Counted from the first letter of the stretch, positions 5,080 to 25,252 are shown. The stretch: DNA of 36,638 nucleotides from a virus (IMGVR_UViG_2541047702_000001), one strand, 5' to 3'. Notes: a model not told the origin generated them from the sequence alone. Made by a program: numbers and translations.

Positions 5080-5087
5080 GTGACATG

Positions 5088-5384
5088 TCACGTCCCTTTT
5101 CTGAATGATAGCCATTCGAAAAATGATGACATTCCACCGCAGACAATAGCAAAGATGATCCCACCAAAGAAGAGAAGGCCAGCCTGCCACCACTCCCACC
5201 GCCATACATCCACAGCGCCAACCATACCAACAATCGCTCCAACAAATGGAATATAGCTCACGATGAAAGCAATGGGGGCTGCAATTATCCAGTGCAATCC
5301 CCACCATGATTCAAGCCCAGCCATAATTGCTGCCAACTGAAAAAGACCAACGACGATATAAACAATGAATCCTATAGCTTGCAT
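5088..5384 (-). CDS. Small integral membrane protein (about 3 TM helices), function unknown; candidate superinfection-exclusion or host-surface-modification accessory protein
   Basis: 98 aa, strongly hydrophobic; AGGTGA ribosome-binding site before ATG 5384; last gene after the ejection-protein genes. Confidence 0.55.
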   Translation of the reverse strand: MQAIGFIVYIVVGLFQLAAIMAGLESWWGLHWIIAAPIAFIVSYIPFVGAIVGMVGAVDVWRWEWWQAGLLFFGGIIFAIVCGGMSSFFEWLSFRKGT

Positions 5385-5396
5385 GTAGTCACCTAT

Positions 5397-5570
5397 TTAC
5401 CCAGTAAAAATAAGAGGCCTCCCCTCAATAAGGCTTGCAACAAGAACTACTCCCTGCACAACAAAGATGAACCAGCAAATAGCTTGAGTCTGAGGGTTAA
5501 GAAAATATTTGTAGCGGTCAATAAATAACAATCCACCAGAAATTATCACACTCAAAATAATTAAAAACAC
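5397..5570 (-). CDS. Small hydrophobic protein (57 aa, 2 predicted TM), not in ORF track (below size cut-off)
   Basis: GTG at 5570 preceded by GGAAG 4 nt upstream, immediately after the stop of the 824-aa gene; translation MFLIILSVIISGGLLFIDRYKYFLNPQTQAICWFIFVVQGVVLVASLIEGRPLIFTG; stop 13 nt before next ATG. Confidence 0.4.
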   Translation of the reverse strand: MFLIILSVIISGGLLFIDRYKYFLNPQTQAICWFIFVVQGVVLVASLIEGRPLIFTG

Positions 5571-5579
5571 AACACTTCC

Positions 5580-8054
5580 TTATTGCGGAGTGACATCCTG
5601 AGGTCGCCACCAGTATGTCTGGTTAAACTCTTTCTTCGAACGTTGCTCCATTTTACGCAAATAGCCTGGTGAAAAATACTCCTGCATCTGATTAAAGATC
5701 ATGTGATCGAGAGCCGCCTTCAAGTACCAGAGATTCGCACCTGGCATCAAACCTTTCCCCAGCTTCACCAGATCACCACCAGTCTGCTCACTCTTCCCTT
5801 CCACAGCATTTAACGGTATGCCCTGAGCAATCTTCACTACGTCATCAACCAGACCAGCTACCGGGCCAAGCATCGACGCCAGCGCGCCGCTTCCGTACCT
5901 AGTGTGATCTGACAATAAAAAGTCACCATAAAGGCCAAGACCACCACCTTTCAGTAGAGCACCAAGCCAGAATTTTGCGGCATCTTCTCCTGTCATCTCT
6001 CGAGGATTACGACCAGACGCAAGGTCGTTAAGTTGTTGCGACAAAGCGCCAAGAATGGTCGTACTGGCAATAAACGTCGCAATATATGCCGCACGCCCAC
6101 CAGCAGACGGCATACCCATAGCGCGTGACCAGTGACGCATAACAACCGAGATAGGGAACGATTTAAACAGGAAAACACTTCTCGTTAATTCACCTTTCCA
6201 TGTTCCACGCTGAATACCAGAACCGGTTATCAGTTGCTCACGTGCTCCCGGTGTAATAACAGCCATATCAACTTCTTCAGTTACGGCACCGAGCAGTTTA
6301 CGCATTGCCTCAAATTTCACGCGTTCAGGCTCACCAAGATGTTTAACTGCTGAATCAGGGATACGCATAATGCTTTCCGGTGTCAGCATCGTATTATTAC
6401 CGTTCCCCCAGTCCTCCTGTTGCGCCAGCTTCCATACGCTCCAGTCTGTGTCAGTAATCCCTTTGCTTTTCAGGATACGAAAATCAGAGTCATCGAGGCT
6501 ACGAAGGTCTGGTGTTCGTGACACTACTTCTCCCAGGCTTCCCATCATGGTTACGCCATAGGCGCGCTTGTGCGCATCTGACCATGCTGTAAGCCCACTG
6601 GCACGCATTACCGCCGTTGCCGCCCAACGAGACACTGACGGCCCCATATTATCCATCGCCCAGCGGTTAACGCTGCCAAGTAGAGATTCCATCGCCAGAC
6701 CAGCGCGGCGCGCCCGCGCAAGTTCTGTACGGTTCGTTGGGTCCATAGCTTCAAGCTGGTTGCGGAATAACTGGTTCATTGGAAGGTTGGTAACCTTCGC
6801 AGACAGATACATGGTTCCAAGATCAGAGAACGATGACAGCAACGCGGATCCGAGTCTGCTGGCAACCAGCCAGTTGCGAATATTGTCAGACCATCGCGCG
6901 ATGTGCGGATTCGCTACAGGCTGTGTCTTTCCGGAAATAAAGTTGTACAGATTCTCTGTGTTGTTCGCCAGCCGCTCGACTTTACCGGTTTTACTCGGGT
7001 TAGCTGTTGCCGTTTCTGCCTTCACCTGATCAAGAAGAGAGCGGAAAACATGATCGGGGTTTGGGCCATATGTTTCCACCAGTGCAATATCTTTACTGAT
7101 ACCTTCCAGGTGACCGACCATGATTTCCCATAGAGAGCGATCGCCATAAAGTTGCTGATATTGCAGATAGGAATCTGCATCTTTGAAATGTATCTGTCGT
7201 GATGCATTACCCCGGTTAGCACGTGCGCCGGAAATTCGCATTCCGGTATCAGTAAGCTTATTCAGCCCACCAGTAGCGATCGTGTTATAAGCCTCTCCAA
7301 GAAATGCAGACAACTCGGCATCGTTCATCAGTTGTCCATCGGCTCGGGTATAATATTTGCGATCCAGCTTACCTATAACATCGCTAACCCACTTATCCTT
7401 TGATACCGCCCCAACCTTTTCCATAGAATGATGTTGAGGGAGCCCCCAGTTTTCGAGATAGCCAATGTCCCCACCAGCATCATTAAACCGGCGGCGCAGT
7501 AGCTCTGTCACTTCTCTCCACGCCTTAGCACCTTTTCTTGCTTTAGCATTGCCAGTATTTTGCCCTCGCATTTCATATACCAGGTCACGTACGCCCGCTT
7601 CATCTTCAAACAGACCAAAAAAGCGAGGATCAACTGCTTCGAATGCCTCCTGCAATTGACTCAATGCATAATCACGAGTGGCTTTTGTTCTGGATTCAAC
7701 AGAGAGGAAATTCGATTTACCGTCTGCATTAAAAGCAATAGTACGGTTAAGAGCGCCAAGTTTCCCATCAGCCCCTTGATAGCTATTGATAAATTTATCC
7801 AATCTCTGACGTGCGGCTATAGTGAGGGCCACACGACGTTTCTTTAATGCCGCTTCTCGCTGTAATTCTTCAGATGCCAATTGTGCTGCACGATATAGCC
7901 GCTCTGATTCGGAAAGTTGTCTCCACGACATCGGGTCATCACGAGCAATGGAGCGCATATTTCGATAAATGCGGTCTTCAATGTTCTGTATTTCTCGCGC
8001 CGTTAACGTGCGCTGCGCCGCCTGCTGGACCGCTTGTATACATTCCTGTCTCAT
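5580..8054 (-). CDS. Large internal virion / DNA-ejection protein (podovirus-type)
   Basis: 824 aa; one of three consecutive very large proteins between tail genes and tailspike; C-terminal region with hydrophobic/Gly-rich segments; no enzymatic motif recognised. Confidence 0.5.
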   Translation of the reverse strand: MRQECIQAVQQAAQRTLTAREIQNIEDRIYRNMRSIARDDPMSWRQLSESERLYRAAQLASEELQREAALKKRRVALTIAARQRLDKFINSYQGADGKLGALNRTIAFNADGKSNFLSVESRTKATRDYALSQLQEAFEAVDPRFFGLFEDEAGVRDLVYEMRGQNTGNAKARKGAKAWREVTELLRRRFNDAGGDIGYLENWGLPQHHSMEKVGAVSKDKWVSDVIGKLDRKYYTRADGQLMNDAELSAFLGEAYNTIATGGLNKLTDTGMRISGARANRGNASRQIHFKDADSYLQYQQLYGDRSLWEIMVGHLEGISKDIALVETYGPNPDHVFRSLLDQVKAETATANPSKTGKVERLANNTENLYNFISGKTQPVANPHIARWSDNIRNWLVASRLGSALLSSFSDLGTMYLSAKVTNLPMNQLFRNQLEAMDPTNRTELARARRAGLAMESLLGSVNRWAMDNMGPSVSRWAATAVMRASGLTAWSDAHKRAYGVTMMGSLGEVVSRTPDLRSLDDSDFRILKSKGITDTDWSVWKLAQQEDWGNGNNTMLTPESIMRIPDSAVKHLGEPERVKFEAMRKLLGAVTEEVDMAVITPGAREQLITGSGIQRGTWKGELTRSVFLFKSFPISVVMRHWSRAMGMPSAGGRAAYIATFIASTTILGALSQQLNDLASGRNPREMTGEDAAKFWLGALLKGGGLGLYGDFLLSDHTRYGSGALASMLGPVAGLVDDVVKIAQGIPLNAVEGKSEQTGGDLVKLGKGLMPGANLWYLKAALDHMIFNQMQEYFSPGYLRKMEQRSKKEFNQTYWWRPQDVTPQ

Positions 8055-8059
8055 TTAAT

Positions 8060-9862
8060 TTAACCTCTCAAGAAACACGCCACAGCGACATCAAACAGGC
8101 TGGAATCCTGTATTGCCTGCTCACTTTCCCTGTTCGCTTCATCCAGTACTTCACGCGCGCTGCGCGATTGTGGATTACCATCATCATCCAGCACGGTGAT
8201 TATCATGTCAGGTGATTCAAGCAGCGAGTCTTCAGCTATGCGCAGATCAATATCTCCTGCCTGATCCGCCATCATTTTTTGTTCTGCCTGTTGCAATATT
8301 TTATCAGGCTCAAAAGGAGCTACTTCGCCTGGCGTCCTGACCTCTGCTGTTTTATAGAATGAAACAGCCTGAGCATTAAGTTCACTTTCAGCCTGCTGTC
8401 TCCGTGCCAGTTCTGCTCGAGCTTCAAAAAACTGACCGCCAGGCTCATGCGGTGCCAACGCGTTACGGGAAAATTCCAGGCGTTCTTGTGCCTGCCGGAT
8501 TCGTTGGTCAATATCGCGAAGTCTGACCTGTTTATCTGATCGAGCACGAGACAAAGATTTACCGCTACCGGTTGGCTCTTCTGCAAGAATTTGTGCGCGC
8601 TGTTCAGTGAGATTTTCAATAATTCGTTGGCTATTAGCTATTTCAGACTGGTAAACCTGTCTATCGCCACGCGGCAAAAGCTGCGCGGCCTGTTCTTCAA
8701 GCAACCGATTTTCTATAGCGCGCGCCGTTACTCCATCATCTACAGATGACAGAGCCTCATTAACTGCCTGAGACAGCAGACTCTTGCGCCCAGGAATTTC
8801 ACTGAAAGATGCAGACTCAACAATGCTGGCAACGTCTACAGGTCTCCCCTGGCTAACATCAGACATAGCTTTTCGCAGAGCCTGAATGTGAGAATTGCGC
8901 GAAAGCACGTTGATCGGCACGCCGGGCGCAATATCAATTTCAGCATGATGAGCGGCATTCGCCGCCAGTGCAGCATCAACATCAACTGGTGAAAAATTTG
9001 GTGCGCTTGTAGACTCGCCGCGAGAGTTAATAAATCTGCCGACACCACCAAACGCCACCCCAAGAACAGCATCAATAGCAATTGCCTGTCGATCCAACAC
9101 ATCATACTGGTTAGCCATTTCGCTATAGCCACCATCACGAAGCGTTTTTGCAGTAAGCCCACGCTGTGCCATACCGAACGCAATATTTGTACCTGCGGCA
9201 TAGGCAATATCTGGCGTTGCACGTACTGCTGTTGCTGCGGCGCGTCGCACTGAACTTTCACCCGTCCGCGCAAGCTGAGCCGCCACACCTTCCGCCAGTG
9301 CACCACCAGCACGTAACCCGAGGCTCATAGGGATCAGTGTTCCGGCACCAGCAGTAATACCCTGCACTAATCCCGCTTCCTGCGCCGTCCTGAAATCAAC
9401 ACCCTGTGCTGTCAGCCGTTCAAACTCAGAAAAACCCTGTAGAGAAGTTACCGCCGCAGCACCTCCGACCGGACCACCGAGCGTTGTACCGACAACAGCC
9501 TGCCCGCCCATATCGAACAACCCATAAAGGACCTGCCCGGCGGTTCCGGTTGTCGCGGCATCAGGCGTCAGCCGCTTAACCTGCTGCTCTGCTAGTTTTC
9601 TCTGCTCAGCAATGTATGAAACTGAAGTGTCATTGATCGAGGTGTTTTCGTTAACAAACTGAGCAATCGGGGATACGATTTTATCCATCCCTGCCCATAG
9701 CAACTGATCTGGCTTTGCCACCAGCCCGGAGTACAAACCAGACAATGCCGCTCCTACAGCATTGTCGAAAAAACCAACATCGCTGTTAAAGCCAGCTGGA
9801 TTTGATGCTGCTTCGTCAAGCTGCTGATTCTGGTTTACTGGATTAAGGCCAAAGTAACTCAT
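8060..9862 (-). CDS. Internal virion / ejection protein
   Basis: 600 aa, Ala/Gly-rich N-terminal half and charged coiled-coil-like C-terminal half; start overlaps upstream gene stop. Confidence 0.45.
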   Translation of the reverse strand: MSYFGLNPVNQNQQLDEAASNPAGFNSDVGFFDNAVGAALSGLYSGLVAKPDQLLWAGMDKIVSPIAQFVNENTSINDTSVSYIAEQRKLAEQQVKRLTPDAATTGTAGQVLYGLFDMGGQAVVGTTLGGPVGGAAAVTSLQGFSEFERLTAQGVDFRTAQEAGLVQGITAGAGTLIPMSLGLRAGGALAEGVAAQLARTGESSVRRAAATAVRATPDIAYAAGTNIAFGMAQRGLTAKTLRDGGYSEMANQYDVLDRQAIAIDAVLGVAFGGVGRFINSRGESTSAPNFSPVDVDAALAANAAHHAEIDIAPGVPINVLSRNSHIQALRKAMSDVSQGRPVDVASIVESASFSEIPGRKSLLSQAVNEALSSVDDGVTARAIENRLLEEQAAQLLPRGDRQVYQSEIANSQRIIENLTEQRAQILAEEPTGSGKSLSRARSDKQVRLRDIDQRIRQAQERLEFSRNALAPHEPGGQFFEARAELARRQQAESELNAQAVSFYKTAEVRTPGEVAPFEPDKILQQAEQKMMADQAGDIDLRIAEDSLLESPDMIITVLDDDGNPQSRSAREVLDEANRESEQAIQDSSLFDVAVACFLRG

Positions 9863-12372
9863 TGCGGAATATCTCCGGAGAATCTCTGACGCTTCTGTGT
9901 CAGATTAAGAACAACGGGAGAACCATCATCTTTCAGCAGATAACCAGTACCAAGTTTCACCAGGTACTGACTATCGCCGTAACTTTGCAAACCATACTGA
10001 CCAGGCGGTGTTTTTATCCCGGAGCCGACAACTTGTTCATTCCAAGCCTGATTAACCTGCTTATCGAATTGCTCTGCAGACATTCCCCACGGCAAAAGGA
10101 CATTCCCCATTCCGTTATAGTCATGCACGCCACCTGTAGCTACGTTAACAGCCTGTTTCCAGATATCAGTGTCAATTTCGCCTGATATCACGCCTTTTTT
10201 CGCCATCACACCAGCGTAATAGTCCTTTGCGATCTCGTATGCCATTGATGCCCCCTGAGCATCACCAGCAAATGCATCCTTCACCATGTCAGAAAACTCA
10301 AGGCGAAGATCAGCATCTTTAGGCATCGGAATACCTTTCGCATCATCAGTACCTTTACGAGCCGCCGCGCCAGCAAGAATTGTCTGCGCAGCGGTTTCAG
10401 GAGACACGGAAACATCCGGATTAAACCAGTTTTTTTCTGCCAAAATACCACCAGGCTTATCCATCAGTATCCCGGCAACGGCAGCAGATGGAGCGTTGGC
10501 ACTGATCTGCTGTAGTGCTGACATATACACCTGCCCACCACCAGTGCTCTGCCTGATGGTATCGAGATATGCTGCCTGTTGGGAAACTGGAGCATCACGA
10601 AAAAAAACACCGATCTGATTGGCCTCGTCTTTGGAAAAGAACGTCAGTGGAGTGCCATATGACTTAGCAAGGTCACTGACCTGAGCGGCACGCAAGGCAA
10701 CGCTCTGTCCAAAGTTATCCTTATTGCTCATGTCGATAGGCTTTGCCTGTCCAGAGGCAAGAGAGAACTGCACAGGATCAGACTGCCGCTGCTTTATCAC
10801 CTGATTTGCAGCCGAAACAACGTTGTCATAAAGAGCTGCGCGAGCCGCATAACCCTCCCCTGTCTCACCAGTATCCGGGCGTAATTGCTCAACATATGCT
10901 GTAATGCTGCTTGTCGGCATGTTGCGGAAAGAGCCTATATACTGTCCGGCGATCTGCGTATTCTTAAACTCGGTATATCGCAGGTTTCCTTCTCTGACTC
11001 CATAAGCTGCAATAAAATCAGCCTCACCAGGTGGGTTAGGAAATTCAACGCCACGCATATACGCAGCCGTCGCATCGCGAACCTGGCTGTCAATCATCGT
11101 TTTATATTCAGCCTGCTGCTGCCGACGCAGTTGATCCGCCTGCCGCATAAAACTTGCCTGAGCCTCAGGAGATGCCGCATCGAATGCTGCATTACCGGTA
11201 TAGCGTTTGGTGTTGGTTGGAATTGTTGATAAACCAAGTGCTGCACTGACACCAGCAGTTAACTTCTGATCACTGTATGGCTGGCTACCGTTCTCATGAT
11301 GGATAATGGCTGCACAAAGCGCCTTCAGGGTATCAGGATTTGATGCATCGAGAGGCTCATCAGCAGAAACGCCAAGTTGTTCGCACACTGCTTTGATATA
11401 CGACATAGTGTCATTTTTATCAGTAGGCGGTGCCCAGCGATTAATTATCTCGCTGACGGTATCAATACCCTGCCGCTGATACGACATCAGGTTCCGCCCT
11501 AATGCACGAATCCCGTGTTCAGGTGTTTCGAATTTAGCAAATCTACCATCATCACCGGTCTGGCCTACCCACGGATTAGTTTTGCTGTATTCGAGATTTC
11601 CGGGGTTATTGTTGCGTATGCCACGGACACGCTCGGAAGAGCCACTATCTGTTACAGCACGGCGAGCTCCAGCAGCAGTATCACTTAACTCGCCATTACT
11701 TTGGATGAATGCGGTCGCATTGTTTGCCGACCACTGGGACAATGCTGCATCAGCAACCTTCTCTTTAAACTCGATTTTCTTGGCCTGTATTTGCTCGTCG
11801 CTCCAGCCATGTGCAGCACCGTACTCCTCAATTTGCTGGAAAGTTTGCTTATTAGCCAATACGTATGCGGCATTGTCGCCATACAATGCTGCGGCATTTT
11901 TACCATTGTTCAGCAGCGTCGCCTGAAACTGACCTTCTTCGTAGGCATTAATTTGCCCTATCTCGTGCCGCCCGGCCTGCGTAGTGAACTGAATGCGCTG
12001 CTGCTGCGCCTGCTGCATGAAAGCATTACGAGCCTGTTCATCCGGCAGCGACATAGCCAGTTGTTCGACCTGAGCATCAAACTGCTGCGTATACTCATGG
12101 CCTTTTCCAATAGCATTTTTCCCTTTCAGGTTAAGCAAACCTGTTTCAGGGTTATTCAGCAGATCACTGCTTATCTGACTGAGGTTAAGAGATGCCTCCT
12201 GAGCCAGAGCGATATTGGCACGCTGTTTTGCCTGCCCCAAAACATCAATTGCCTCTGTCCCTGCCCGAACAAAAGCATCACCAATACCTGGCTGAGAAAA
12301 CGTCTGCAAGCCTGCTGACTGAACTCCACGGCTCTCAACCTGGCGTCCGGATACTGTTGGTACGACTGGCAT
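9859..12372 (-). CDS. Internal virion / ejection protein with a putative peptidoglycan-hydrolase-like domain
   Basis: ATG at 12372 with GGAGG Shine-Dalgarno and TAATG overlap with upstream stop (ORF-track start at 12447 is an upstream extension); region RNNNPGNLEYS...GIRALGRNL...IINRWAP resembles virion-associated cell-wall hydrolase domains (from memory, unverified). Confidence 0.45.
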   Translation of the reverse strand: MPVVPTVSGRQVESRGVQSAGLQTFSQPGIGDAFVRAGTEAIDVLGQAKQRANIALAQEASLNLSQISSDLLNNPETGLLNLKGKNAIGKGHEYTQQFDAQVEQLAMSLPDEQARNAFMQQAQQQRIQFTTQAGRHEIGQINAYEEGQFQATLLNNGKNAAALYGDNAAYVLANKQTFQQIEEYGAAHGWSDEQIQAKKIEFKEKVADAALSQWSANNATAFIQSNGELSDTAAGARRAVTDSGSSERVRGIRNNNPGNLEYSKTNPWVGQTGDDGRFAKFETPEHGIRALGRNLMSYQRQGIDTVSEIINRWAPPTDKNDTMSYIKAVCEQLGVSADEPLDASNPDTLKALCAAIIHHENGSQPYSDQKLTAGVSAALGLSTIPTNTKRYTGNAAFDAASPEAQASFMRQADQLRRQQQAEYKTMIDSQVRDATAAYMRGVEFPNPPGEADFIAAYGVREGNLRYTEFKNTQIAGQYIGSFRNMPTSSITAYVEQLRPDTGETGEGYAARAALYDNVVSAANQVIKQRQSDPVQFSLASGQAKPIDMSNKDNFGQSVALRAAQVSDLAKSYGTPLTFFSKDEANQIGVFFRDAPVSQQAAYLDTIRQSTGGGQVYMSALQQISANAPSAAVAGILMDKPGGILAEKNWFNPDVSVSPETAAQTILAGAAARKGTDDAKGIPMPKDADLRLEFSDMVKDAFAGDAQGASMAYEIAKDYYAGVMAKKGVISGEIDTDIWKQAVNVATGGVHDYNGMGNVLLPWGMSAEQFDKQVNQAWNEQVVGSGIKTPPGQYGLQSYGDSQYLVKLGTGYLLKDDGSPVVLNLTQKRQRFSGDIPQ

Positions 12373-17665: not shown

Positions 17666-18658
17666 TTACACCACGCGGGCTTCTGTTTCCAGAAGCGCAT
17701 CAGTTTCACGGATTGGTACACCACGGAATGACGTCCACCACTCGCCTTCAGTCTCTTTTACGCTGATCGCCAGAGATGTTTTCTCCAGAGACTGCAAATC
17801 AAGAGCCTGGCCTACAGTGCGGTTCATGTAGAACACCGGGCGCCCCATGCCACGGTTCGGAATGCGATGCAGTGCTTTAACCATCAACTTCGCAATATTT
17901 GCGGCAGAGGAAGGTTCTGAAAGATTGCTGACATCGATGTTTGCAATGCGAACAACATAACGCCAGTCACGCAGAGCAAGTCCGTTATCCCATTTGTAAT
18001 GGGTGCGATAGCCTTCGTACTTGCCGCCATTAGCATCTTCCAGTGTCACCTGGCCTTTATCTTCCATCTGGATGCCAGCCTTCTGCCCTTTCGGGAAGAT
18101 GCCATGCACGGTGTTTTCGCCCCACACCACTAACCAGATTGAGGTGTTATCTGTACCCGTGCCACCAGCATCAATGATGTTCTGAGCATTACCCGCAGAC
18201 AGGCTGGAATAGCGGGAGGACAGTCCCATAAACTGCTGAGGGTTAACGCTGGAATCACCATAAAACAGCGTCTGCGCCATCTGCTGATTCATCGCTTCAA
18301 TAAATGCGCGGTCTTCAGACAGGCGGAATTCGGCGGTATTGCCGTTCAGATCAGCCAGTGACTTATCGACTTCAGCATAGGTTTCCAGCATGCCAACGGA
18401 ATCGGTGACCTGCACCGTGGTTGATTTGCTTGGCTGTACGCCATAGTTCAGCAAACGCCAGGTAGCAGAAGGTAAACCAGAACGAATGGTGGTTCGGTGT
18501 CCGGTAGGAAGGTTTCCTTCAACAAAAGGCATATCCTGAAGAATTGGGTTAGTTTGATTGAGAAGCTCGATAATCTTATCGACTTTCCCATTTGGATCGA
18601 CGCGCTTACCCCAGTCAGCCAGCGTTAGCGCAGTTAAGCCTTTAACAGCCATTGTCAT
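17666..18658 (-). CDS. Major capsid protein
   Basis: 330 aa, follows scaffold-like gene, typical size and position; hairpin 17630-17649 downstream. Confidence 0.65.
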   Translation of the reverse strand: MTMAVKGLTALTLADWGKRVDPNGKVDKIIELLNQTNPILQDMPFVEGNLPTGHRTTIRSGLPSATWRLLNYGVQPSKSTTVQVTDSVGMLETYAEVDKSLADLNGNTAEFRLSEDRAFIEAMNQQMAQTLFYGDSSVNPQQFMGLSSRYSSLSAGNAQNIIDAGGTGTDNTSIWLVVWGENTVHGIFPKGQKAGIQMEDKGQVTLEDANGGKYEGYRTHYKWDNGLALRDWRYVVRIANIDVSNLSEPSSAANIAKLMVKALHRIPNRGMGRPVFYMNRTVGQALDLQSLEKTSLAISVKETEGEWWTSFRGVPIRETDALLETEARVV

Positions 18659-18666
18659 TTCCTCTC

Positions 18667-19368
18667 TTATTTGCCATAGAGCACTTCGGCCGCACTACGC
18701 TGGCCTTCATTACCACCGGTGACCATGCCATCTTCAGACATCGCCTTTCCGATTTTCACGAACGTTTTGACCAGATCAGGGTGATTACCCAGTCCGGTGG
18801 TGTTCAGATATTCTTTGAGTTCAGGTGTCCCGAACTGGTCAAGCGCACGCTGTGCGGCGCTAAGGTTAGAAATCAACTTGTCGCCACCGATTTCTTTGTC
18901 AGCTTTTACATCCGCAGCCCACTGCTCGGTTGTTTTCTGCCAGGCTTCTGCCTGGCGCTGCTGAACACCTGCCAGAATCTTCGGATAAGCATCAACCAGC
19001 TTTTGCGCTTGCTCGTTGGTCAGGTTTAGTTCTCGCGCCACCGGCTCGAATTCCTTCAACGCTTCTGTATCCAGCTCTACGCCTTCGGCAGCCTGAAACT
19101 CGTACTTCTCAGGCGCACCCTCTGGTTTATCGCCGCCCTTTTTTTCATCCTGCTTATCGTTTTCAGGCTTTTTGTCATCAGCAGGTTTATCGCCATCAGC
19201 AACAGGTTGTGGCTTATCACCTTCCGGTTGTGATGGATCACCAACTGGAGCAGGGTTATCACCTGCAGGCGCTGACGGTTCTGACGCAGCCGGAGCTGCT
19301 CCACCATCGACTGGTTGCTCATTGCAAAGACGGCGATACAGCAAACGCTCAAATAAATTCATGATCAC
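18667..19368 (-). CDS. Scaffolding protein (acidic, Pro/Asp/Lys-rich N-terminus)
   Basis: 233 aa; low-complexity acidic Pro-rich segment PAPVGDPSQPEGDKPQPVADGDKPADDKKPENDKQDEKKGGDKPEGAPE; position between portal and capsid. Confidence 0.5.
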   Translation of the reverse strand: MIMNLFERLLYRRLCNEQPVDGGAAPAASEPSAPAGDNPAPVGDPSQPEGDKPQPVADGDKPADDKKPENDKQDEKKGGDKPEGAPEKYEFQAAEGVELDTEALKEFEPVARELNLTNEQAQKLVDAYPKILAGVQQRQAEAWQKTTEQWAADVKADKEIGGDKLISNLSAAQRALDQFGTPELKEYLNTTGLGNHPDLVKTFVKIGKAMSEDGMVTGGNEGQRSAAEVLYGK

Positions 19369-19661
19369 TCCTGTTCACTGGCCTCTTTGGCCATCTTCAA
19401 ATACTGTTCAGGGCAATGCGCCATAACGCGCTGAAACAGTTCCAGCGCCAGATTGCGTTGCCCCTCATTAAATGCCATTGCCATAGCGTCCATCGGTGAG
19501 ATAGCGGAAAACACACGGCCTTTCTCCAGCACCGACCAGACAACGCGACGCCCCTGTTCACTGCTCATGACAAAGCGAATGTCATCAATTTCACGCTGTG
19601 CCATGTCACATTGCTTACGGGCGTTTTCTTCTTTCAGTTGATCATCTTCGTAATCTGTCAT
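19365..19661 (-). CDS. Hypothetical small acidic protein between portal and scaffold
   Basis: 98 aa ORF with overlapping start/stop to neighbours. Confidence 0.4.
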   Translation of the reverse strand: MTDYEDDQLKEENARKQCDMAQREIDDIRFVMSSEQGRRVVWSVLEKGRVFSAISPMDAMAMAFNEGQRNLALELFQRVMAHCPEQYLKMAKEASEQE

Positions 19662-21337
19662 TGTGATTGCCCACCCTGACCACTAACTGCATTCGCCATA
19701 GCTGACAAAACACTCGGCTCCGAAGTTTTAGCTTCGCTTAGCGTCTTGGCACCCTGTGCCGCCGCCATCCCCATCGCCATCATTTGTTGCTGCTGTTGTT
19801 GCTGTGCCCGTTGCTGGCGAGCCTGCTCAACCTGTTCCTGCGGAACAATGACGGTTGGAGACACTCCGGACATATCAGCGAATGCATCGATCGCCTGATC
19901 AACGTTGAGTTTGTCGAGAGCTTCTGGTTTCGCTTGCGCAAGTTGACCAATGAAGTTAACCGTGGACGCCAGACTGGACAGGCCGATAGACTTCTGCGCC
20001 TGAGCCATGACGGAAATGTATTCGACCTTCAGGGGCATGCCTTCCATCGCGTCAGGCGGTGGCGGCAACATGTTTTTACGCACCATCATCGAGAAAGTGC
20101 GGTCAATGAGAGGATTAAGACATTCGTCGTTCAGACGCTCCAGAACTGGCCCCAACATCAGAAGCTTTTCTTCTTTCATTTCGATCACTGCTTCAACAGG
20201 CATCGAGCGGGTATTGATGTTCTGCAACATCATGAACAGATCGACAAAGTAGGCGCTGTTAATGATTTGGCGGGTGTCCTGAATGTCTGCTACCAGATCT
20301 GCTGTACTGGGGTTAACCAGATAAGCAGGCCTGAAACCATCCTGACCAGTAATCTGATCGATATACGTGATGTCGCCAGGAAGAAGGGAGGCGCGCTGAT
20401 TCTTGAGGGAAGTCGGAGCAACCATCGGCGGATTGGTGGCTTTATCAATCAACTGCGACTTGCGCTTCTGGAGAAGCTGCAATGCCTTAACAGGTCCAAG
20501 CGCCAGCATACCAGGGCATGATGATCCATAAACATCTTCGCCGTTAACTTCCCAGCGCGGAGCCATAATTGGAAACTCATCGAATCCGGACTCACGCAAC
20601 AACTTGTCGTTATCGCCACCAACCTCGTAATAAACCGATTTGAATGGCTTGTTCTTGCTATCCAGCTTCGATGTATCGCGGTCAATGTTCGGGTAAACCG
20701 AATGCATCACTTCAATCCACTTCTCGTAGGTGCCGCTTTCCCACATGCTTTTTACGGATTCGCTGACGTTATTTAGCCCGAACTCCTGAACAAGCTGACG
20801 AACAGTCATAGAGAACTTGCGAAAACAGGTGTCCACACTGCCACGAGGTGAGTTAGCCAGGTAGTAACTGCCTATAGGGAATGGCATTGTGCGAATGATG
20901 TCCTCGTCATCCTCCAGCACCGCCATTGCACCAGTGCTGTATGTGCCGAGGCTTCCGTATAACTGCGGCAGCGACTGATAGAGATTCGACTTATTGAACA
21001 TATCGTTCATGCGGTTCTGCACCGCCTCAAGCCACAACTTAACAGGGCCATAATCCATCATTTCAGGATCTGGCGTAGCCAGGCGAAACCACGGACGCGC
21101 GGGGCTTGTGATGCCTGACATCATGCCGCTGGCGAGAGTGCGCGCCGCCATAGTCCCGGTCGAATCAATAATGCGTGTATTCCGTCGATCGTTACGGTTG
21201 ACCTCAGAAGTCAGAAAGCGGGAACCACGCGGGTTGATGTAATCACTCAACTCGCGCCAGTGCGGCTCGAACGACTGACGCTCGCTTTCAAGTTGTGCGA
21301 ACTGTTTGTTCAATCGCTCTTTAGTTGTTTCCGCCAT
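19658..21337 (-). CDS. Portal (head-tail connector) protein
   Basis: 559 aa, first large gene of the virion module after terminase, GGAG Shine-Dalgarno 8 nt upstream; C-terminal poly-Gln/Ala low-complexity tail. Confidence 0.6.
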   Translation of the reverse strand: MAETTKERLNKQFAQLESERQSFEPHWRELSDYINPRGSRFLTSEVNRNDRRNTRIIDSTGTMAARTLASGMMSGITSPARPWFRLATPDPEMMDYGPVKLWLEAVQNRMNDMFNKSNLYQSLPQLYGSLGTYSTGAMAVLEDDEDIIRTMPFPIGSYYLANSPRGSVDTCFRKFSMTVRQLVQEFGLNNVSESVKSMWESGTYEKWIEVMHSVYPNIDRDTSKLDSKNKPFKSVYYEVGGDNDKLLRESGFDEFPIMAPRWEVNGEDVYGSSCPGMLALGPVKALQLLQKRKSQLIDKATNPPMVAPTSLKNQRASLLPGDITYIDQITGQDGFRPAYLVNPSTADLVADIQDTRQIINSAYFVDLFMMLQNINTRSMPVEAVIEMKEEKLLMLGPVLERLNDECLNPLIDRTFSMMVRKNMLPPPPDAMEGMPLKVEYISVMAQAQKSIGLSSLASTVNFIGQLAQAKPEALDKLNVDQAIDAFADMSGVSPTVIVPQEQVEQARQQRAQQQQQQQMMAMGMAAAQGAKTLSEAKTSEPSVLSAMANAVSGQGGQSQ

Positions 21338-21351
21338 TTCAATGACTCCGG

Positions 21352-21558
21352 TTACTGACCAAGCAGCGTTTTACCGCTGGTATTAGCGGTTGATGTGTCG
21401 CCCTGAGAACCGGTAAGCAGCGTAGAACTACGACCAGCAGCAGCGCGACGGCGACGTGTTTCTTCGTCGCGGGCATCAACAACGGCGGCATCCTGCTCCT
21501 GTGGTGCTACCTGAACTTCTGGTGTTGCAGGCACTGATGGTGAGCTCCCCATGCACAT
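21352..21558 (-). CDS. Small hypothetical protein upstream of portal
   Basis: 68 aa; the initiation region CGGAGTCATTGATATG duplicates that of the portal gene (CGGAGTCATTGAAATG). Confidence 0.35.
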   Translation of the reverse strand: MCMGSSPSVPATPEVQVAPQEQDAAVVDARDEETRRRRAAAGRSSTLLTGSQGDTSTANTSGKTLLGQ

Positions 21559-21637
21559 ATCAATGACTCCGTACGCAATTAAATTATTACCAATTTAACC
21601 ACATATGATTTATTTATCGTAGATAGTTGACATTTAA

Positions 21638-21652
21638 CGCACAAATTATTAC
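21638..21652. promoter_or_regulatory. Operator-like palindrome TTACC-TTTCA-GGTAA (exact), with TTGACA -35-like hexamer 17 bp upstream
   Basis: Exact motif; TTGACA at 21616-21621; lies in the intergenic region between portal-operon start and the tRNA unit. Confidence 0.55.
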
Positions 21653-21983
21653 CTTTCAGGTAAGCAAAGGGTTCATTCCGGTTATTAACCTGACTGGCTT
21701 GTCGTTAAATTGAACAGGTGGAGTGAGCTTTTATTTTGAGCAGTACGGCGTATGGCACATGCGCCGATAGCGGTCTGGATACGTTTAAGGGGCACCCTCC
21801 CTTGCTCGGGCAAACGAACCAGGTAGCCGGAATGTGCAAGCCCCGTTCATATCGTCGGACCGAGGACTCACCATCCTGGCGATTCGGTGTGACGCCTCGG
21901 AAGAGACGAGGGTACAACGATGAGAGCATTTATGGAGCCGCGACAAAGTGTGGCGCCTTAACAGGCTAAGTGCTCTCAGCGTT

Positions 21984-22060
21984 GTGGCATTAGCTCAGTT
22001 GGACAGAGCAACCGCCTTCTAAGCGGTTGGTCGCAGGTTCGAATCCTGCATGCCACGCCA
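21984..22060 (+). tRNA. tRNA-Arg, anticodon UCU (reads AGA)
   Basis: Manual cloverleaf: acceptor GTGGCAT/ATGCCAC, D-stem GCTC/GAGC, anticodon stem ACCGC/GCGGT with loop CTTCTAA, T-stem GCAGG/CCTGC with loop TTCGAAT, discriminator G and encoded CCA; 77 nt. Confidence 0.85.
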
Positions 22061-22104
22061 GAATCACGCCTAAGGACCGTGATGCCAGAAGTTCCAGGTG
22101 CTTG

Positions 22105-22146
22105 GCGGTGATAGTTTCCCTTGAAGGACTATCACCGCCCTTTTTA
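22105..22146 (+). terminator. Rho-independent terminator downstream of tRNA-Arg
   Basis: GGCGGTGATAGT ... ACTATCACCGCC perfect 12-bp stem followed by CTTTTT. Confidence 0.75.
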
Positions 22147-22223
22147 CAGCAGGACGCCATTGCGATGACTTCATGCTGTAAACCCGTACAGCCACGGAAG
22201 GCATAACTCATTGCTTCCAGTTC

Positions 22224-22247
22224 GCCCGGTTCGCCGGGCATTTTTTT
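22224..22247 (+). terminator. Terminator-like hairpin (GCCCGG-TTCG-CCGGGC then T7) ending 1 nt before the gp49-like ribosome-binding site; candidate attenuator
   Basis: 6-bp GC stem, tetraloop, 7 T; ends at 22247, AAGGTGAG follows at 22248 and ATG at 22259. Confidence 0.6.
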
Positions 22248-22258
22248 AAGGTGAGATT

Positions 22259-22633
22259 ATGAACGACCAGCAAATCGAAAAAGAAATCGTTGAGAAAGGC
22301 AAAACGGCACCGCGTGTAACACCCGAGAAAATTGAAGGCCTCATTTGCAGTGAGCATTTTTTCACTGCTGCGCAGGGTGACCACCAGGCTAAAGAAGATG
22401 ACCTTATTTATAATCCGGAGCCTTATGTCGAAGCCACCCCTGATGCTCTGCACCTTCTCACTTTCTGCGTACTGGTGCTGAAGAATGGCTTCACCGTCAC
22501 CGGAGAGAGTGCCTGTGCAAGCCCGGAAAACTTTGATGCAGAAATTGGTCGGAAGATTGCCCGGCAGAATGCTGTAAACAAAATCTGGATGCTCGAAGGT
22601 TACTTGCTGAAGCAGAAGTTAAGCGAGCAATAA
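22259..22633 (+). CDS. Gp49-like phage protein (N4 gp49 / Sf6 gp66 family, recalled), function unknown; moron-type insertion
   Basis: 124 aa; ribosome-binding site AAGGTGAG; opposite orientation to flanking structural genes; family assignment from recalled motif LTFCVLVLKNGFTVTGESACASPENFD, unverified. Confidence 0.5.
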   Translation: MNDQQIEKEIVEKGKTAPRVTPEKIEGLICSEHFFTAAQGDHQAKEDDLIYNPEPYVEATPDALHLLTFCVLVLKNGFTVTGESACASPENFDAEIGRKIARQNAVNKIWMLEGYLLKQKLSEQ

Positions 22634-22653
22634 CACCGTGGCATGTCACAAAC

Positions 22654-22680
22654 AGCCAGCCTATGAGCTGGCTTTGTTTT
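22654..22680. terminator. Intrinsic terminator AGCCAGC-CTATGA-GCTGGCT then TTGTTTT after the gp49-like gene (plus strand; weaker on minus strand after terL)
   Basis: 7-bp stem followed by T-rich tract; preceded by the palindrome variant GTGGCATGTCAC. Confidence 0.6.
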
Positions 22681-22723
22681 ATCCTCACCAGAGGATATCA
22701 ACGACATTATCCCCACCAGCGGA

Positions 22724-24199
22724 TTAAGCATAAGGGTCATAATCCGTTATGGCCCTTCCCTGCTGGCTTTGCTGTCCTGGTATATTTATGCGTTTCGAGA
22801 CCGGGAAAGCAAACGTCAGCAGTAGCGCATCGCCTTTACCAGGAGAACGCCCAAGACGCTCTTTGATATCTTCCTTCGGTTCGATAACGATTTTACCGTC
22901 CACACGAACTTTGTACTCTGCCGCCGACAGGTCGTCTGCAGTTTCCTGGTCATCCAGCATGCCGCCCAGCCTCAGCCATGTCTTACATGAGTTGAACATC
23001 TCCCCACGCTTGTTAAGCATCTGCGGGTCAGTGGACGCACCGCCGAACGGAACAAGTTGCCATGTACGTCCCCAGCCATCACCGATTGACTTCAAACCGG
23101 TTCCATAACCGAAGTCGATGAACACCGCGTCAGCCTGATACTGGTCTTCAAAGTCAGCGATACGCTTCGCCATAATCAGATCGTCGGTGGTCTTGTTACC
23201 AGTCCATAGCACCTTACTGTGCAGCCCCTGCCGCAGGTATATCACAGCGTCATCAACGCCGGAGTATGCCGGGTCAACGCCGATTATCACCGGAGCATGT
23301 GCAACCTGCGCAGCGGTTACCACCCGTTTCATTGCCTCGTCAGTAAGGCCGGTAGGGATAAACTGCAATTCAGATGCATCCGGGAATATGCCGCGCACAC
23401 GGATTTTAACGAAGTCGCTGTCTTCCCCGTAGTCATCAACCCATTTCTGCAACTGCTGTTTGTTAGTGCCTTCCACCGTCCGGCTGTCAATCTGCGCAGT
23501 TTTCCAGCGGTGTTTATATTTGCGGAAACATTCGCGGAAACGCCCGGTGTTACGTGTAGGGTTTCCGAATGCCACCCAGATAATCTCAGTGTCTTCGTCC
23601 GTCAGCGCACCCTCTGCTACCTCCCACACCAGATCGGCAATGTTGGATGCTTCATCGAATACCACGATGATACGCTTACGCTCGTTGTGCAGCCCGGCGA
23701 ACGCCTCTGTGTTGTGCTCAGACCACGGTATTGCGTCAGCTCGCCAGCGCTTGTCGTGGCCTGGGTCATTGCTGTACATCGCCGTGGCGGTGCAGGTGAA
23801 CCACTCTTTCGTGATAGCCAGATTCGACCATTTGATGATTTCCGGCCATGTCTTGGTGCGCAGCTGGTTGTCGGTGTTGGCGGTCACCACGACCTTACAA
23901 TCCTCGCAAGTGGACATGCCCCAGTTGATCAGCATTGAGATGAATGCGGATTTACCAATACCGTGACCAGAAGCGCGTGCCAGCATAAGCGGCTGATATC
24001 GCGTCTCTGGATTCTGCAGGTGATCACGTATCTCTCGGAACGCATCGGCCTGCCACTGACGTGGACCGGTGGCATGTGCCAGTTCAGTCCCCTCTTCCCC
24101 CCACGGGAACGCATAGAGGGCATAACCAAGCGGATCGTGAGTAAACCCTGCAATATCCTCGATCAACTGCTCTTCAGGAGATAACACTGTATCTGTCAC
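22724..24199 (-). CDS. Terminase large subunit
   Basis: 491 aa; P-loop-like ASGHGIGKS near the N-terminus, acidic residues typical of the nuclease half; overlaps small subunit stop; precedes portal module. Confidence 0.75.
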   Translation of the reverse strand: MTDTVLSPEEQLIEDIAGFTHDPLGYALYAFPWGEEGTELAHATGPRQWQADAFREIRDHLQNPETRYQPLMLARASGHGIGKSAFISMLINWGMSTCEDCKVVVTANTDNQLRTKTWPEIIKWSNLAITKEWFTCTATAMYSNDPGHDKRWRADAIPWSEHNTEAFAGLHNERKRIIVVFDEASNIADLVWEVAEGALTDEDTEIIWVAFGNPTRNTGRFRECFRKYKHRWKTAQIDSRTVEGTNKQQLQKWVDDYGEDSDFVKIRVRGIFPDASELQFIPTGLTDEAMKRVVTAAQVAHAPVIIGVDPAYSGVDDAVIYLRQGLHSKVLWTGNKTTDDLIMAKRIADFEDQYQADAVFIDFGYGTGLKSIGDGWGRTWQLVPFGGASTDPQMLNKRGEMFNSCKTWLRLGGMLDDQETADDLSAAEYKVRVDGKIVIEPKEDIKERLGRSPGKGDALLLTFAFPVSKRINIPGQQSQQGRAITDYDPYA

Positions 24200-24792
24200 T
24201 GATTACCATCCTGACGTTCTTTGAGTCGCTTCCTGGCTGCTGCTATGCGATCAGCAATTGTCACATTCACATTAACATCCAGGCGTTCTTTGAATGCGTT
24301 GACGTCGACGTGCTTACCAATCAGTTCGAGGTTCTTCACCTTGTCAGGCCATTTAATTTTTTTGAGGATTGTCTCTATCGAATCCTCGTTCATGTTCATG
24401 ATGGTCGATGACAGATCAAAGCCGCTAAGCGTAGTGCGCCAGATTTTCGGCCACTCGCGGATTGGCTTAAGGCTCCCATCGTCGTTGAGGATGTCGATCA
24501 CGTCCATCTGGTCGATCTCCACCAGGCGCATGAGAACGTAATCAGCACTGACGCGCATTCGTTTGTTGCGCTCCTCCATCAACTCGGCAATCCGTTTTTG
24601 AATGCGTTCATCGCGCATCATGACACTGGCTTTAACTGCCGCTGTATTTGGGGAGAATCCTGCATTAATCGCTGCCTGAGTCTGGTTTTCAGGCGTTTTG
24701 ATGTATGACTGGCAATAAGCCTCCTGCATTGCTGTGAGCGGCTTAAATTGCGTTGATTTGCGTTTATAGGTTTTAGGTTCAGCAGGCATCAT
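24196..24792 (-). CDS. Terminase small subunit
   Basis: ATGATG at 24792/24789 (ORF-track start 24870 is an upstream extension); basic N-terminus, overlaps terL start; first gene after a terminator. Confidence 0.55.
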   Translation of the reverse strand: MMPAEPKTYKRKSTQFKPLTAMQEAYCQSYIKTPENQTQAAINAGFSPNTAAVKASVMMRDERIQKRIAELMEERNKRMRVSADYVLMRLVEIDQMDVIDILNDDGSLKPIREWPKIWRTTLSGFDLSSTIMNMNEDSIETILKKIKWPDKVKNLELIGKHVDVNAFKERLDVNVNVTIADRIAAARKRLKERQDGNQ

Positions 24793-24824
24793 AACCACCG
24801 TGGTAATAGTTACCGTTGTGGTAA
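24792..24824. promoter_or_regulatory. Two tandem operator-like sites (TAACC-ACCGT-GGTAA at 24792-24806, 1 mismatch; TTACC-GTTGT-GGTAA at 24810-24824, exact) overlapping the terS initiation region
   Basis: Appears as direct repeat GTGGTAATAGT(T)ACC x2 just upstream of ATG 24792. Confidence 0.5.
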
Positions 24825-24843
24825 TAGTACCATGCAAAATAAA

Positions 24844-24861
24844 GCCGCCATAGTTGGCGGC
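24844..24861 (-). terminator. Intrinsic terminator GCCGCC-AACTAT-GGCGGC followed by TTTATTTTG on the minus strand, immediately upstream of terS (late-operon entry point)
   Basis: 6-bp GC stem, T-rich tail on minus strand. Confidence 0.55.
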
Positions 24862-24910
24862 AGTATTCAAAACACATCAAATTCATCATGCATAATCTAC
24901 TCGTGACATG

Positions 24911-25252
24911 TCACACTATTAATTTCGTTTCATGCCAGCCTTTAGTCACCCAGCATTGCGAGTCACCATTACACGGGCATGAATTCACAGGAACTCTCTC
25001 GCCGCACTTACCGCAACGTGTTCTGCTGATCGATTTTATACGCCCGTGCACGCGTGCATCATCCTGGCGGATCAGTAACGCTATATACTCACCAAATTCG
25101 TAAGGCGCACGCCCGGGGCGACGCGTGGCACAGTTACGCTCCAGCATTTCAATTTCCTGAGCATCAAGCACAATTTCCAGCTTACGCACACCAGATGCAG
25201 CTTGTCTGGCTCTCTGAGCGGCTTTGCGCTCTGCTGCTGATTTAGCCATCAA
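24911..25252 (-). CDS. Cys-rich small protein (putative zinc-binding), candidate late-gene regulator by position
   Basis: 113 aa; C-terminal CGKCGERVPVNSCPCNGDSQC cluster; stop codon lies inside palindrome GTGACATGTCAC; last gene before the terminator and terS. Confidence 0.35.
   Translation of the reverse strand: MMAKSAAERKAAQRARQAASGVRKLEIVLDAQEIEMLERNCATRRPGRAPYEFGEYIALLIRQDDARVHGRIKSISRTRCGKCGERVPVNSCPCNGDSQCWVTKGWHETKLIV

What the first reader, a model, noticed from the sequence alone, without database searches (positions are those of the whole stretch)
5080..24914. 12-bp perfect palindrome GTGACATGTCAC recurring at operon junctions and overlapping stop codons
Exact copies at 5080-5091 and 24903-24914 (about 0.002 expected by chance) and a one-base variant GTGGCATGTCAC at 22638-22649. 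Each lies beside a terminator hairpin at a transcription-unit boundary, and in both exact copies the TGA stop of the upstream minus-strand gene is palindrome positions 2-4. This is a second candidate regulatory protein-binding site distinct from the TTACC-N5-GGTAA operator, possibly for a late-transcription factor. A looser coding copy (GTGCCATGTCAC) occurs at 19608-19619.
Basis: seen in the sequence. Interest (0 to 1): 0.6.

Follow-up and report, generated by a model that had tools for sequence, protein, structure and literature searches.

The report
Phage regulator's palindromic DNA target site
The repeated 12-base palindrome is real and is conserved in every relative of this epsilon15-like prophage that was checked; it travels with one small phage gene, whose stop codon it overlaps, so it is most likely that uncharacterised DNA-binding protein's own target site and not a late-promoter element.

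Summary
The window is an E. coli epsilon15/phiV10-like (Uetakevirus) prophage with its late genes on the minus strand.

The exact palindrome sits at the same three junctions in epsilon15, phiV10, SPN1S, PAT1, Tyrion, TL-2011b, PAS61 and about 80 metagenomic relatives, while the flanks and neighbouring cargo genes differ.

Site A overlaps the stop codon of a 112-aa protein (epsilon15 gp49 / phiV10 gp55 / N15 gp46, phrog_536). It is modelled as a ribbon-helix-helix fold plus a four-cysteine knuckle. YGTGAC-NN-GTCACR follows this gene into N15-like, Mu-like and lambda-like phages, down to 35% protein identity, nearly always at the gene's 3' end. Epsilon15-like Pseudomonas phages that lack the gene also lack the motif.

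I read it as that protein's operator. In this phage the copies sit beside terminators at the ends of transcription units, not at late promoters, which carry the TTACC-N5-GGTAA operator. The most likely action is an orientation-independent block or boundary, but this is inferred. The half-sites equal those of matS (MatP), one base closer together. I found no description in the literature. It is a new variant of a known kind, of moderate interest.

The parts
24903..24914 (.). Site A: exact GTGACATGTCAC. It overlaps the TGA stop of the gp55-family gene and lies 41 nt upstream of the terminator that precedes terS.
   Evidence: Exact in 75 of 80 close relatives and one mismatch in 4. Present in epsilon15, SPN1S, PAT1, TL-2011b and PAS61.
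24911..25252 (-). Gene of the 112-aa ribbon-helix-helix plus Cys4 protein (epsilon15 gp49 / phiV10 gp55 / N15 gp46 family, phrog_536), the proposed binder. It is the last gene of the early-right operon. The ATG is at 25249.
24844..24861 (-). Intrinsic terminator hairpin (GCCGCCAACTATGGCGGC followed by a T run) between site A and the terS operator/start.
   Evidence: Conserved in relatives.
22638..22649 (.). Site B: the degenerate copy GTGGCATGTCAC, with one half-site mutated. It lies between the stop of the plus-strand cargo gene (22259-22633) and the bidirectional terminator after terL.
   Evidence: At this junction 57 of 77 relatives have the exact palindrome, 8 have one mismatch and 12 lack it together with the whole cassette.
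22654..22673 (+). Bidirectional terminator hairpin between terL (minus strand) and the reversed cargo gene (plus strand).
   Evidence: In the site-B alignment the stem sequence differs in epsilon15 and Tyrion (GCGGGC arm instead of GCTGGC); these differences look compensatory but were not tested.
5080..5091 (.). Site C: exact GTGACATGTCAC at the end of the structural (portal-to-tail) operon. It overlaps the stop of the 98-aa membrane-protein gene 5088-5384 and abuts the terminator.
   Evidence: Palindrome and terminator stem are the only invariant block in the 7-genome alignment.
5062..5079 (-). Bidirectional terminator hairpin AGGCCGCTTTCGCGGCCT between the structural operon (minus strand) and the reversed gene 4780-5055 (plus strand).
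19598..19609 (.). One-mismatch copy inside the coding sequence of gene 19365-19661. Probably incidental.
   Evidence: It is a fixed variant (GTGACATGGCAC on the late strand) in E. coli relatives and is not found within one mismatch in epsilon15 or Tyrion.

Best explanation
The palindrome (general form YGTGAC-NN-GTCACR) is the DNA target of the phage's own small ribbon-helix-helix plus zinc-knuckle protein: epsilon15 gp49, phiV10 gp55, N15 gp46, phrog_536, here 24911-25252 on the minus strand. A dimer would sit on the dyad. One site is always kept at the 3' end of the protein's own gene, usually with the TGA stop inside the left half-site.

In this Uetakevirus, two further sites lie against the bidirectional terminators that end the terS-terL unit and the structural operon. 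I infer that the bound protein is an orientation-independent block or boundary that reinforces these unit ends. It would gate read-through from the early-right operon into terS and keep late and reversed cargo transcription apart. By stalling RNA polymerase at its own stop codon it may also limit its own synthesis.

Shown: the site is under selection, and gene and motif co-occur. Inferred: that this protein is the binder. Speculative: the roadblock, boundary and autoregulation steps.
For: 1) Selection. The 12-mer is exact at the same three junctions in epsilon15, phiV10, TL-2011b, PAS61, Tyrion, phiv142-3, SPN1S and PAT1, while the flanks are unalignable. At least six different reversed cargo genes abut site B with the palindrome unchanged.

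2) Linkage to the gene in unrelated phages.
- 61% homologue in a lambdoid prophage: GTGACCTGTCAC over the stop.
- 56% homologue: GTGACCGGTCAC over the stop.
- 55% homologue: TAG stop, then GTGACATGTCAC beginning 2 nt after the stop codon, so the site is not coding-driven.
- 53% homologue in a TelK phage: exact over the stop, plus 2 more copies.
- N15 gene 46: GTGACTGGTCAC over the stop, plus 2 more copies.
- Mu-like 47% homologue: motif retained inside a C-terminal extension.
- 35% homologue: GTGACAGGTCAC over the stop.
- Lambda-like Chlobot: site 7 nt after the stop.

3) Reverse test. Of 80 viral loci holding CGTGACTGGTCACG, 15 encode a family member. In 12 of them the motif lies at that gene's stop, in 2 it lies 24-36 nt inside the gene's 3' end, and in 1 the gene runs off the end of the locus.

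4) Controls. The epsilon15-like Pseudomonas phages AF and Flu_PA14_4 (terL 54-65% identical) have neither the gene nor any GTGAC-N1-3-GTCAC.

5) Centre dinucleotide. In the genomes not chosen by the search pattern it is the same at all sites within a genome: AT three times in Uetakeviruses and the TelK phage, TG three times in N15. PAT1 site B (AG) is an exception. The concordance count includes loci selected for the TG pattern, so it is biased.

7) DNA-level, non-directional. The palindrome lies on either side of its terminator. As RNA it folds at only -1.2 kcal/mol.
Against: - No binding data exist.
- Three homologue lineages (45%, 51% and 41% identity) have no site at the stop.
- Site B is degenerate in this window and absent from 12 of 77 close relatives, so it cannot be essential.
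- The roadblock or boundary role has no direct support. The protein is an early lytic product, and why a phage would need to reinforce terminators is unclear.
- In N15 the extra sites are inside repA and upstream of a promoter-like element, not at terminators. The downstream function may therefore differ between phages.
Confidence: 0.55

Rival explanations
1. Late-transcription control element. The palindrome would be the binding site of an activator or Q-like antiterminator that switches on the late operons.
For: - Site A lies directly after the last early gene and before a terminator and terS. This resembles the Q gene, qut/PR' and tR' layout of lambdoid phages.
- A weak promoter-like GTGACA-18-CATGAT overlaps site A on the late strand.
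- The gene occupies the position that Q holds in lambdoid maps.
Against: - Sites B and C are at 3' ends of units, on either side of bidirectional terminators, and have no conserved promoter.
- Each late unit has its own TTACC-N5-GGTAA operator far from the palindrome.
- In about 20 relatives a 70-aa gene starts 10 nt after site A with no promoter room.
- The protein has no Q, Ogr or Delta family signature.
- N15-like phages carry the gene-site pair in addition to a Phage_antiter_Q gene.
- The pair also occurs beside int in lambdoid prophages.
Confidence: 0.1
2. MatP-like DNA organiser. The same protein would bind the sites, but its job would be to bridge them (A to B 2.3 kb, B to C 17.5 kb) into loops, as MatP tetramers bridge matS sites, rather than to block RNA polymerase.
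For: - The half-sites are identical to matS, GTGACRNYGTCAC.
- There are several dispersed copies per genome, independent of orientation.
- The protein has an extra C-terminal domain that could mediate dimer-dimer contacts.
Against: - There is no sequence homology to MatP. The four-helix bundle and coiled coil that MatP uses are absent.
- Some phages have only one site: Chlobot has a single copy in its whole 46-kb genome, and the 20-kb loci L088 and L092 show only one. Bridging cannot be the core function.
Confidence: 0.12
3. Module-boundary recombination joint. The palindrome, with its terminator, would be a conserved linker at which cargo cassettes are exchanged, by homology or by a site-specific enzyme, and would have no regulatory role.
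For: - BLAST matches to different relatives break exactly in the terminator-palindrome block. PAS61 ends at window 5092 and HEMP4 begins at 5061.
- At least six different cargo genes abut site B.
- Two alternative modules follow site A.
Against: - Any conserved functional island between variable cargo will show such breakpoints.
- The motif keeps its position at the 3' end of one gene family in unrelated phage types, where flanks on both sides differ.
- One copy is kept inside the repA coding sequence of N15-like phages.
- No recombinase co-occurs.
- Where cassettes at site B are replaced wholesale, the palindrome goes too.
Confidence: 0.08
4. Host-factor site. The palindrome would be read by a host nucleoid protein such as MatP (13-bp matS) or SlmA (12-bp GTGAGTACTCAC).
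For: - It shares GTGAC/GTCAC with matS.
- It shares the 12-bp length and 8 of 12 bases with the SlmA site.
Against: - The spacing is one base shorter than matS, and no true matS occurs in the window even with one mismatch.
- Positions 5-8 differ from the SlmA consensus.
- Presence and absence follow a phage gene, not the host.
Confidence: 0.05
5. Part of the terminators or another RNA element. The transcribed palindrome would fold and act in termination, processing or translation.
For: - All three copies are within 0-41 nt of an intrinsic terminator.
- In several phages the next gene's Shine-Dalgarno sequence abuts the palindrome.
Against: - The hairpin is marginal, at -1.2 kcal/mol with z -0.03, and does not join the terminator fold.
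- It lies upstream of the hairpin at C and downstream at B on the late strand.
- One-mismatch variants are not biased towards G-U wobble pairs.
- Copies occur without any terminator.
Confidence: 0.03

Closest known systems
Ribbon-helix-helix repressors with palindromic operators (Arc, Mnt, CopG, MetJ, ParD and TacA antitoxins, AmrZ)
   Different: - No Pfam family or above-threshold NCBIfam family matches.
- It carries a C-terminal four-cysteine knuckle.
- The conserved site lies at the 3' end of the gene and contains the stop codon, instead of over its promoter.
- It is a single 12-14 bp dyad, not tandem sub-sites.
MatP-matS (Ter macrodomain organiser of enterobacteria)
   Different: - The spacer is 2 bp, not 3 (12 vs 13 bp).
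- There is no detectable sequence homology.
- It has no four-helix bundle or coiled coil, and has a zinc knuckle instead.
- The sites are on phage genomes, and no matS occurs in the window.
SlmA-binding sequence (GTGAGTACTCAC)
   Same: 12-bp perfect palindrome sharing GTGA....TCAC.
   Different: The central four bases differ. SlmA is a TetR-family host protein. The phage motif follows a phage gene.
Lambda Q with its binding site at PR' followed by tR'
   Same: A regulator gene at the end of the early-right operon, a cis site immediately after it, then a terminator before the late genes.
   Different: Unrelated protein. Extra copies lie at 3' ends of operons. The site-gene pair coexists with a genuine Q gene in N15-like phages. 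No conserved promoter overlaps the site.
LacI roadblock at the end of lacI giving stop-less mRNA and tmRNA tagging (Abo et al. 2000, recalled from memory and not checked here)
   Same: A DNA-binding protein whose site lies at the 3' end of its own gene could stall RNA polymerase before the stop codon and so limit its own synthesis.
   Different: This is purely an analogy. Nothing here tests stalling or tagging.

Membership tests
Ribbon-helix-helix (CopG/Arc/MetJ) DNA-binding proteins with dyad operators | Beta-strand, helix, helix core fold | tested here: met
Ribbon-helix-helix (CopG/Arc/MetJ) DNA-binding proteins with dyad operators | Sequence membership in a curated ribbon-helix-helix family | tested here: not met
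   No Pfam hit at E below 0.01. NCBIfam gives only a sub-threshold hit to YbfE, 14 bits against a cut-off of 62. The PDB profile search is empty.
Ribbon-helix-helix (CopG/Arc/MetJ) DNA-binding proteins with dyad operators | Dimer binds the dyad site specifically | not testable with these tools
   Only co-occurrence evidence is available.
MatP/matS | 13-bp site GTGACRNYGTCAC | tested here: not met
   The site is 12 bp with a 2-bp spacer in all lineages. There is no 13-bp matS in the window. The consensus is from PMC6907758.
MatP/matS | MatP-family protein (four-helix bundle, ribbon-helix-helix, coiled coil) | tested here: not met
   hhalign probability 0.2%. The model lacks a bundle and a coiled coil. 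The MatP domain description is from PMC6538776.
SlmA / SBS | 12-bp palindrome GTGAGTACTCAC | tested here: not met
   4 of 12 positions differ, positions 5-8. The consensus is from PMC3020112.
Q-type late antitermination (Q gene, Q-binding element in the late promoter, downstream terminator) | Q-family protein | tested here: not met
   No Phage_antiter_Q or other Q family hit. N15-like phages carry a separate Phage_antiter_Q gene.
Q-type late antitermination (Q gene, Q-binding element in the late promoter, downstream terminator) | Site embedded in a sigma-70 promoter that is followed by a terminator | tested here: inconclusive
   A weak 9-of-12 promoter-like match overlaps site A, and a terminator follows. 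It is not conserved in the variant with a gene directly after the site, and nothing comparable exists at sites B and C.
Intrinsic terminator / RNA element | Stable RNA structure that includes the motif | tested here: not met
   -1.2 kcal/mol, z -0.03. In the centroid structures of the site B and site C folds the terminator hairpin forms without the motif.

The most novel reading that the evidence does not exclude
A widespread but unstudied family of phage ribbon-helix-helix plus zinc-knuckle proteins reads matS-type half-sites (GTGAC) at a 12-bp spacing and keeps its operator inside its own stop codon. Binding there stalls RNA polymerase to give stop-less mRNA, a built-in self-limiting gate for whatever lies downstream. 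Extra copies serve as orientation-independent insulators at bidirectional terminators. A bolder version is that the protein also engages host matS or SlmA-type sites and so interferes with Ter organisation or division during infection.
Probability: 0.12. Interest if true: 0.8.

Novelty: new variant of a known kind. Interest (0 to 1): 0.55.

Why it matters
It gives a specific, testable target site to a protein family found in about 150 clusters at 50% identity and in Uetakeviruses, N15-like telomere phages, Mu-like, P2-like and lambdoid prophages. Until now this family has been labelled only 'hypothetical' or 'transcriptional regulator'.

It also adds a second cis-element to the epsilon15/phiV10 regulatory map, beside the annotated repressor operators. 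phiV10-type phages are used as E. coli O157 reporter phages (recalled from memory, not checked here), so unit boundaries matter for engineering.

An operator conserved at a gene's own stop codon, and sitting against bidirectional terminators, would be an unusual regulatory design if the roadblock idea holds.

Tried and rejected
- Genome end (cos/pac). The phiV10 record is cut inside site A, but the cut simply follows the stop of the last annotated gene. The site also occurs three times per genome, so I rejected this.
- Promoter. Only weak 9-of-12 matches were found.
- RNA hairpin or terminator extension. Rejected on the folding result.
- True matS. Absent from the window.
- Sequence homology to MatP. 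None by hhalign.
- PDB sequence search with the family profile. Empty.
- PADLOC defence models. No hit.
- BFVD fold search. It returned only a fragment of the same family.
- AFDB fold library. Not available.
- The search for related loci with the diverse alignment. Failed because the alignment was too divergent.
- Literature. Full-text searches for the 12-mers and for Uetakevirus regulators found nothing relevant.
- Chlobot. I first took its copy of the gene for a fragment, but the profile search shows a full-length reading frame with the site 7 nt after its stop.
Full report
**What the window is.** BLAST to annotated phages shows an E. coli prophage of the epsilon15/phiV10 type, genus Uetakevirus. 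Comparison with phiV10, TL-2011b, PAS61, Tyrion, epsilon15 and phiv142-3 and the ORF list put the late genes on the minus strand:
- terS at 24196 to about 24789
- terL at 22724-24199
- portal at 19658-21337
- structural genes down to 5580-8054
- tailspike at 2413-4602
- lysis genes at the left end
- integrase at 35181-36431

The gene at 24911-25252 (minus strand) is the last gene of the early-right operon.

**The observation.** GTGACATGTCAC is exact at 5080 and 24903. The specific motif is far above chance. After correcting for the choice of motif, only 1.2% of permuted windows contain any repeated 12-bp palindrome. Terminator hairpins lie 0, 4 and 41 nt from the three intergenic copies.

**Conservation.** The exact 12-mer occupies the same three junctions in every Uetakevirus examined: epsilon15 (2142, 19517, 39612), phiV10, TL-2011b, PAS61, Tyrion, phiv142-3, SPN1S and PAT1.
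- In a seven-genome alignment of site C, the only invariant block is the palindrome plus the terminator stem.
- At site B the palindrome is nearly invariant, while the terminator stem sequence differs between genomes and the sequence to its right is unalignable.
- In 80 IMG/VR loci, site A is exact in 75 and has one mismatch in 4.
- Site B is exact in 57 of 77, has one mismatch in 8 and is absent in 12. In those 12 the whole segment after terL has been replaced.
- At least six unrelated reversed cargo genes abut site B, and two alternative modules follow site A, with the palindrome unchanged.
- The window's site B is one of the degenerate variants.
- The copy at 19598 is a fixed coding variant in the E. 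coli phages and is not found within one mismatch in the Salmonella and Enterobacter relatives checked (epsilon15, Tyrion, SPN1S, PAT1). I regard it as incidental.

**Gene and motif travel together.** I looked up the contigs of increasingly distant homologues.

| Homologue | Phage context | Motif and position |
|---|---|---|
| 61% | lambdoid prophage beside int | GTGACCTGTCAC over the stop |
| 56% | other phage | GTGACCGGTCAC over the stop, then a terminator |
| 55% | other phage | TAG stop, then GTGACATGTCAC starting 2 nt after the stop codon |
| 53% | TelK telomere phage | exact over the stop, plus two more exact copies |
| N15 gene 46 | N15 | GTGACTGGTCAC over the stop, plus copies at 28550 and 33237 |
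| 47% | Mu-like phage | same motif kept inside a C-terminal extension, 38 nt before the stop |
| 35% | contig with a phage integrase and Dam methylase | GTGACAGGTCAC over the stop |
| Chlobot | lambda-like | GTGACATGTCAC 7 nt after the stop |

Three lineages (51%, 45% and 41% identity) have no site at the stop. The 55% and 47% cases show that the overlap with the stop is not a coding artefact.

Three further checks point the same way:
- Reverse test. Of 80 viral loci that hold CGTGACTGGTCACG, 15 encode a family member. The motif is at that gene's stop in 12, lies 24-36 nt inside its 3' end in 2, and in 1 the gene runs off the locus.
- Negative controls. The epsilon15-like Pseudomonas phages AF and Flu_PA14_4 have neither the gene nor a single GTGAC-N1-3-GTCAC.
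- Centre dinucleotide. It is uniform within the genomes that were not chosen by the search pattern: AT three times in Uetakeviruses and the TelK phage, TG three times in N15. PAT1 site B, with AG, is an exception.

The simplest reading is that the protein recognises YGTGAC-NN-GTCACR.

**What it does here.** The three late units begin at TTACC-N5-GGTAA operators, at 24810 (with a one-mismatch copy at 24792), 21649 and 4707. The epsilon15 record annotates the equivalent sites as repressor sites. The palindromes are not at these starts. They lie at the ends of the early-right operon, the terS-terL unit and the structural operon.

On the late strand the palindrome is upstream of the terminator at A and C and downstream at B. 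As RNA it barely folds. The element therefore acts as DNA and without direction.

My preferred inference is a bound dimer that blocks or marks the boundary beside each terminator, in either direction. At site A it would gate read-through into whatever follows. In other phages the next gene's ribosome-binding site abuts the palindrome, which fits a gate. A block at the protein's own stop codon could also produce stop-less mRNA and self-limitation. This is by analogy with LacI, which I recall from memory. None of this is tested.

In N15 the extra sites sit inside repA and about 25 bp upstream of a TTGACG-18-TAGAGT promoter-like element ahead of the gene 32-30 operon, which includes the annotated anti-repressor gene 30. 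Secondary uses probably differ between phages.

**Rivals.** A late activator or Q-like role fits only the layout of site A. It is contradicted by the positions of B and C, by the separate late operators, by relatives with a gene starting 10 nt after site A, and by coexistence with true Q genes. MatP-like bridging is possible but cannot be the core function, because the complete Chlobot genome has a single site. The recombination-joint idea explains the BLAST breakpoints but not the gene linkage. Host MatP or SlmA are unlikely because spacing or sequence differ. An RNA role is not supported.

**Known or new.** The epsilon15 and phiV10 records do not annotate these sites. Full-text searches for the 12-mers and for work on this protein found nothing relevant. 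The ZX5 paper studies the repressor, anti-repressor and integrase only. A ribbon-helix-helix regulator with a dyad operator is a known kind of system. The unusual features are:
- the fused cysteine knuckle
- the operator kept at the gene's own stop codon across unrelated phages
- copies set against bidirectional terminators
- half-sites identical to matS, one base closer together

**Verdict.** The feature is real and under selection, and is very probably the operator of an uncharacterised phage protein family. The mechanism is inferred only. It is of moderate interest.

Noticed in passing
window 21984-22060 (+): A tRNA-Arg(UCU) gene (Rfam 73 bits, also ARAGORN) lies on the strand opposite to the late genes. 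It overlaps the minus-strand ORF 21990-22241, which relatives annotate as a hypothetical protein (phiV10 p04). That CDS is probably spurious. phiv142-3 annotates the tRNA on the other strand from the one ARAGORN finds.
   Followed up: partly
window 4707-4721, 21649-21663, 24792-24806, 24810-24824; also 28309, 28371, 30293-31466, 36474: TTACC-N5-GGTAA dyads (12 with at most one mismatch, 0.6 expected) sit upstream of each late unit and around the immunity region. They match the sites annotated as repressor-binding in the epsilon15 record. Late operons therefore seem to be directly under this operator.
   Followed up: partly
window 24862-24902 (minus strand): The 41 nt between site A and the terminator are the remnant of a 70-aa gene that is intact in about 20 relatives (e.g. 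L022 10357-10569). Only an 8-codon frame, ATG CAT GAT GAA TTT GAT GTG TTT TGA, survives here.
   Followed up: partly
window 24789-24870: The long terS frame with a TTG start at 24870, as annotated in phiV10 and PAS61, would run through the terminator hairpin and the operator. The ATG at 24789 or 24792, used in TL-2011b and phiv142-3, is the more likely start.
   Followed up: no
window 22259-22633 (+) and 4780-5055 (+): Two reversed genes interrupt the late operons, each bounded by a bidirectional terminator. One is a Phage_gp49_66 family protein. The other is a phrog_450 protein with a C-terminal resemblance to anti-repressors. The slot after terL holds at least six different cargo genes in relatives.
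   Followed up: partly
L089 and L097/L098 (N15-like contigs): Seven copies per 20 kb of a palindrome with the half-site GGACC (seen as GGGACC-NN-GGTCCC in L089) are scattered through the N15-like loci. From memory these resemble the dispersed partition sites of N15. They are a separate system from the GTGAC motif.
   Followed up: no
L103 1326-1373: After the stop of a 41%-identical homologue, the two halves of the motif (GCGTGACCGG ... CCGGTCACGC) are separated by about 28 nt, as if the palindrome had been split by an insertion or had turned into a long hairpin.
   Followed up: no
L226 (Salmonella virus PAT1) 23824-26274: terL is annotated at 816 aa against 491 aa here, and the match covers only residues 84-491. 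This suggests an insertion, possibly an intein or homing element, or a fused frame at the N-terminus.
   Followed up: no
L099 (N15) 33237; L097 6647; L089 5092: One GTGAC-NN-GTCAC copy is kept at the same place, about 620 nt into the repA coding sequence of three different N15-like phages. Its centre dinucleotide matches that genome's other copies.
   Followed up: partly
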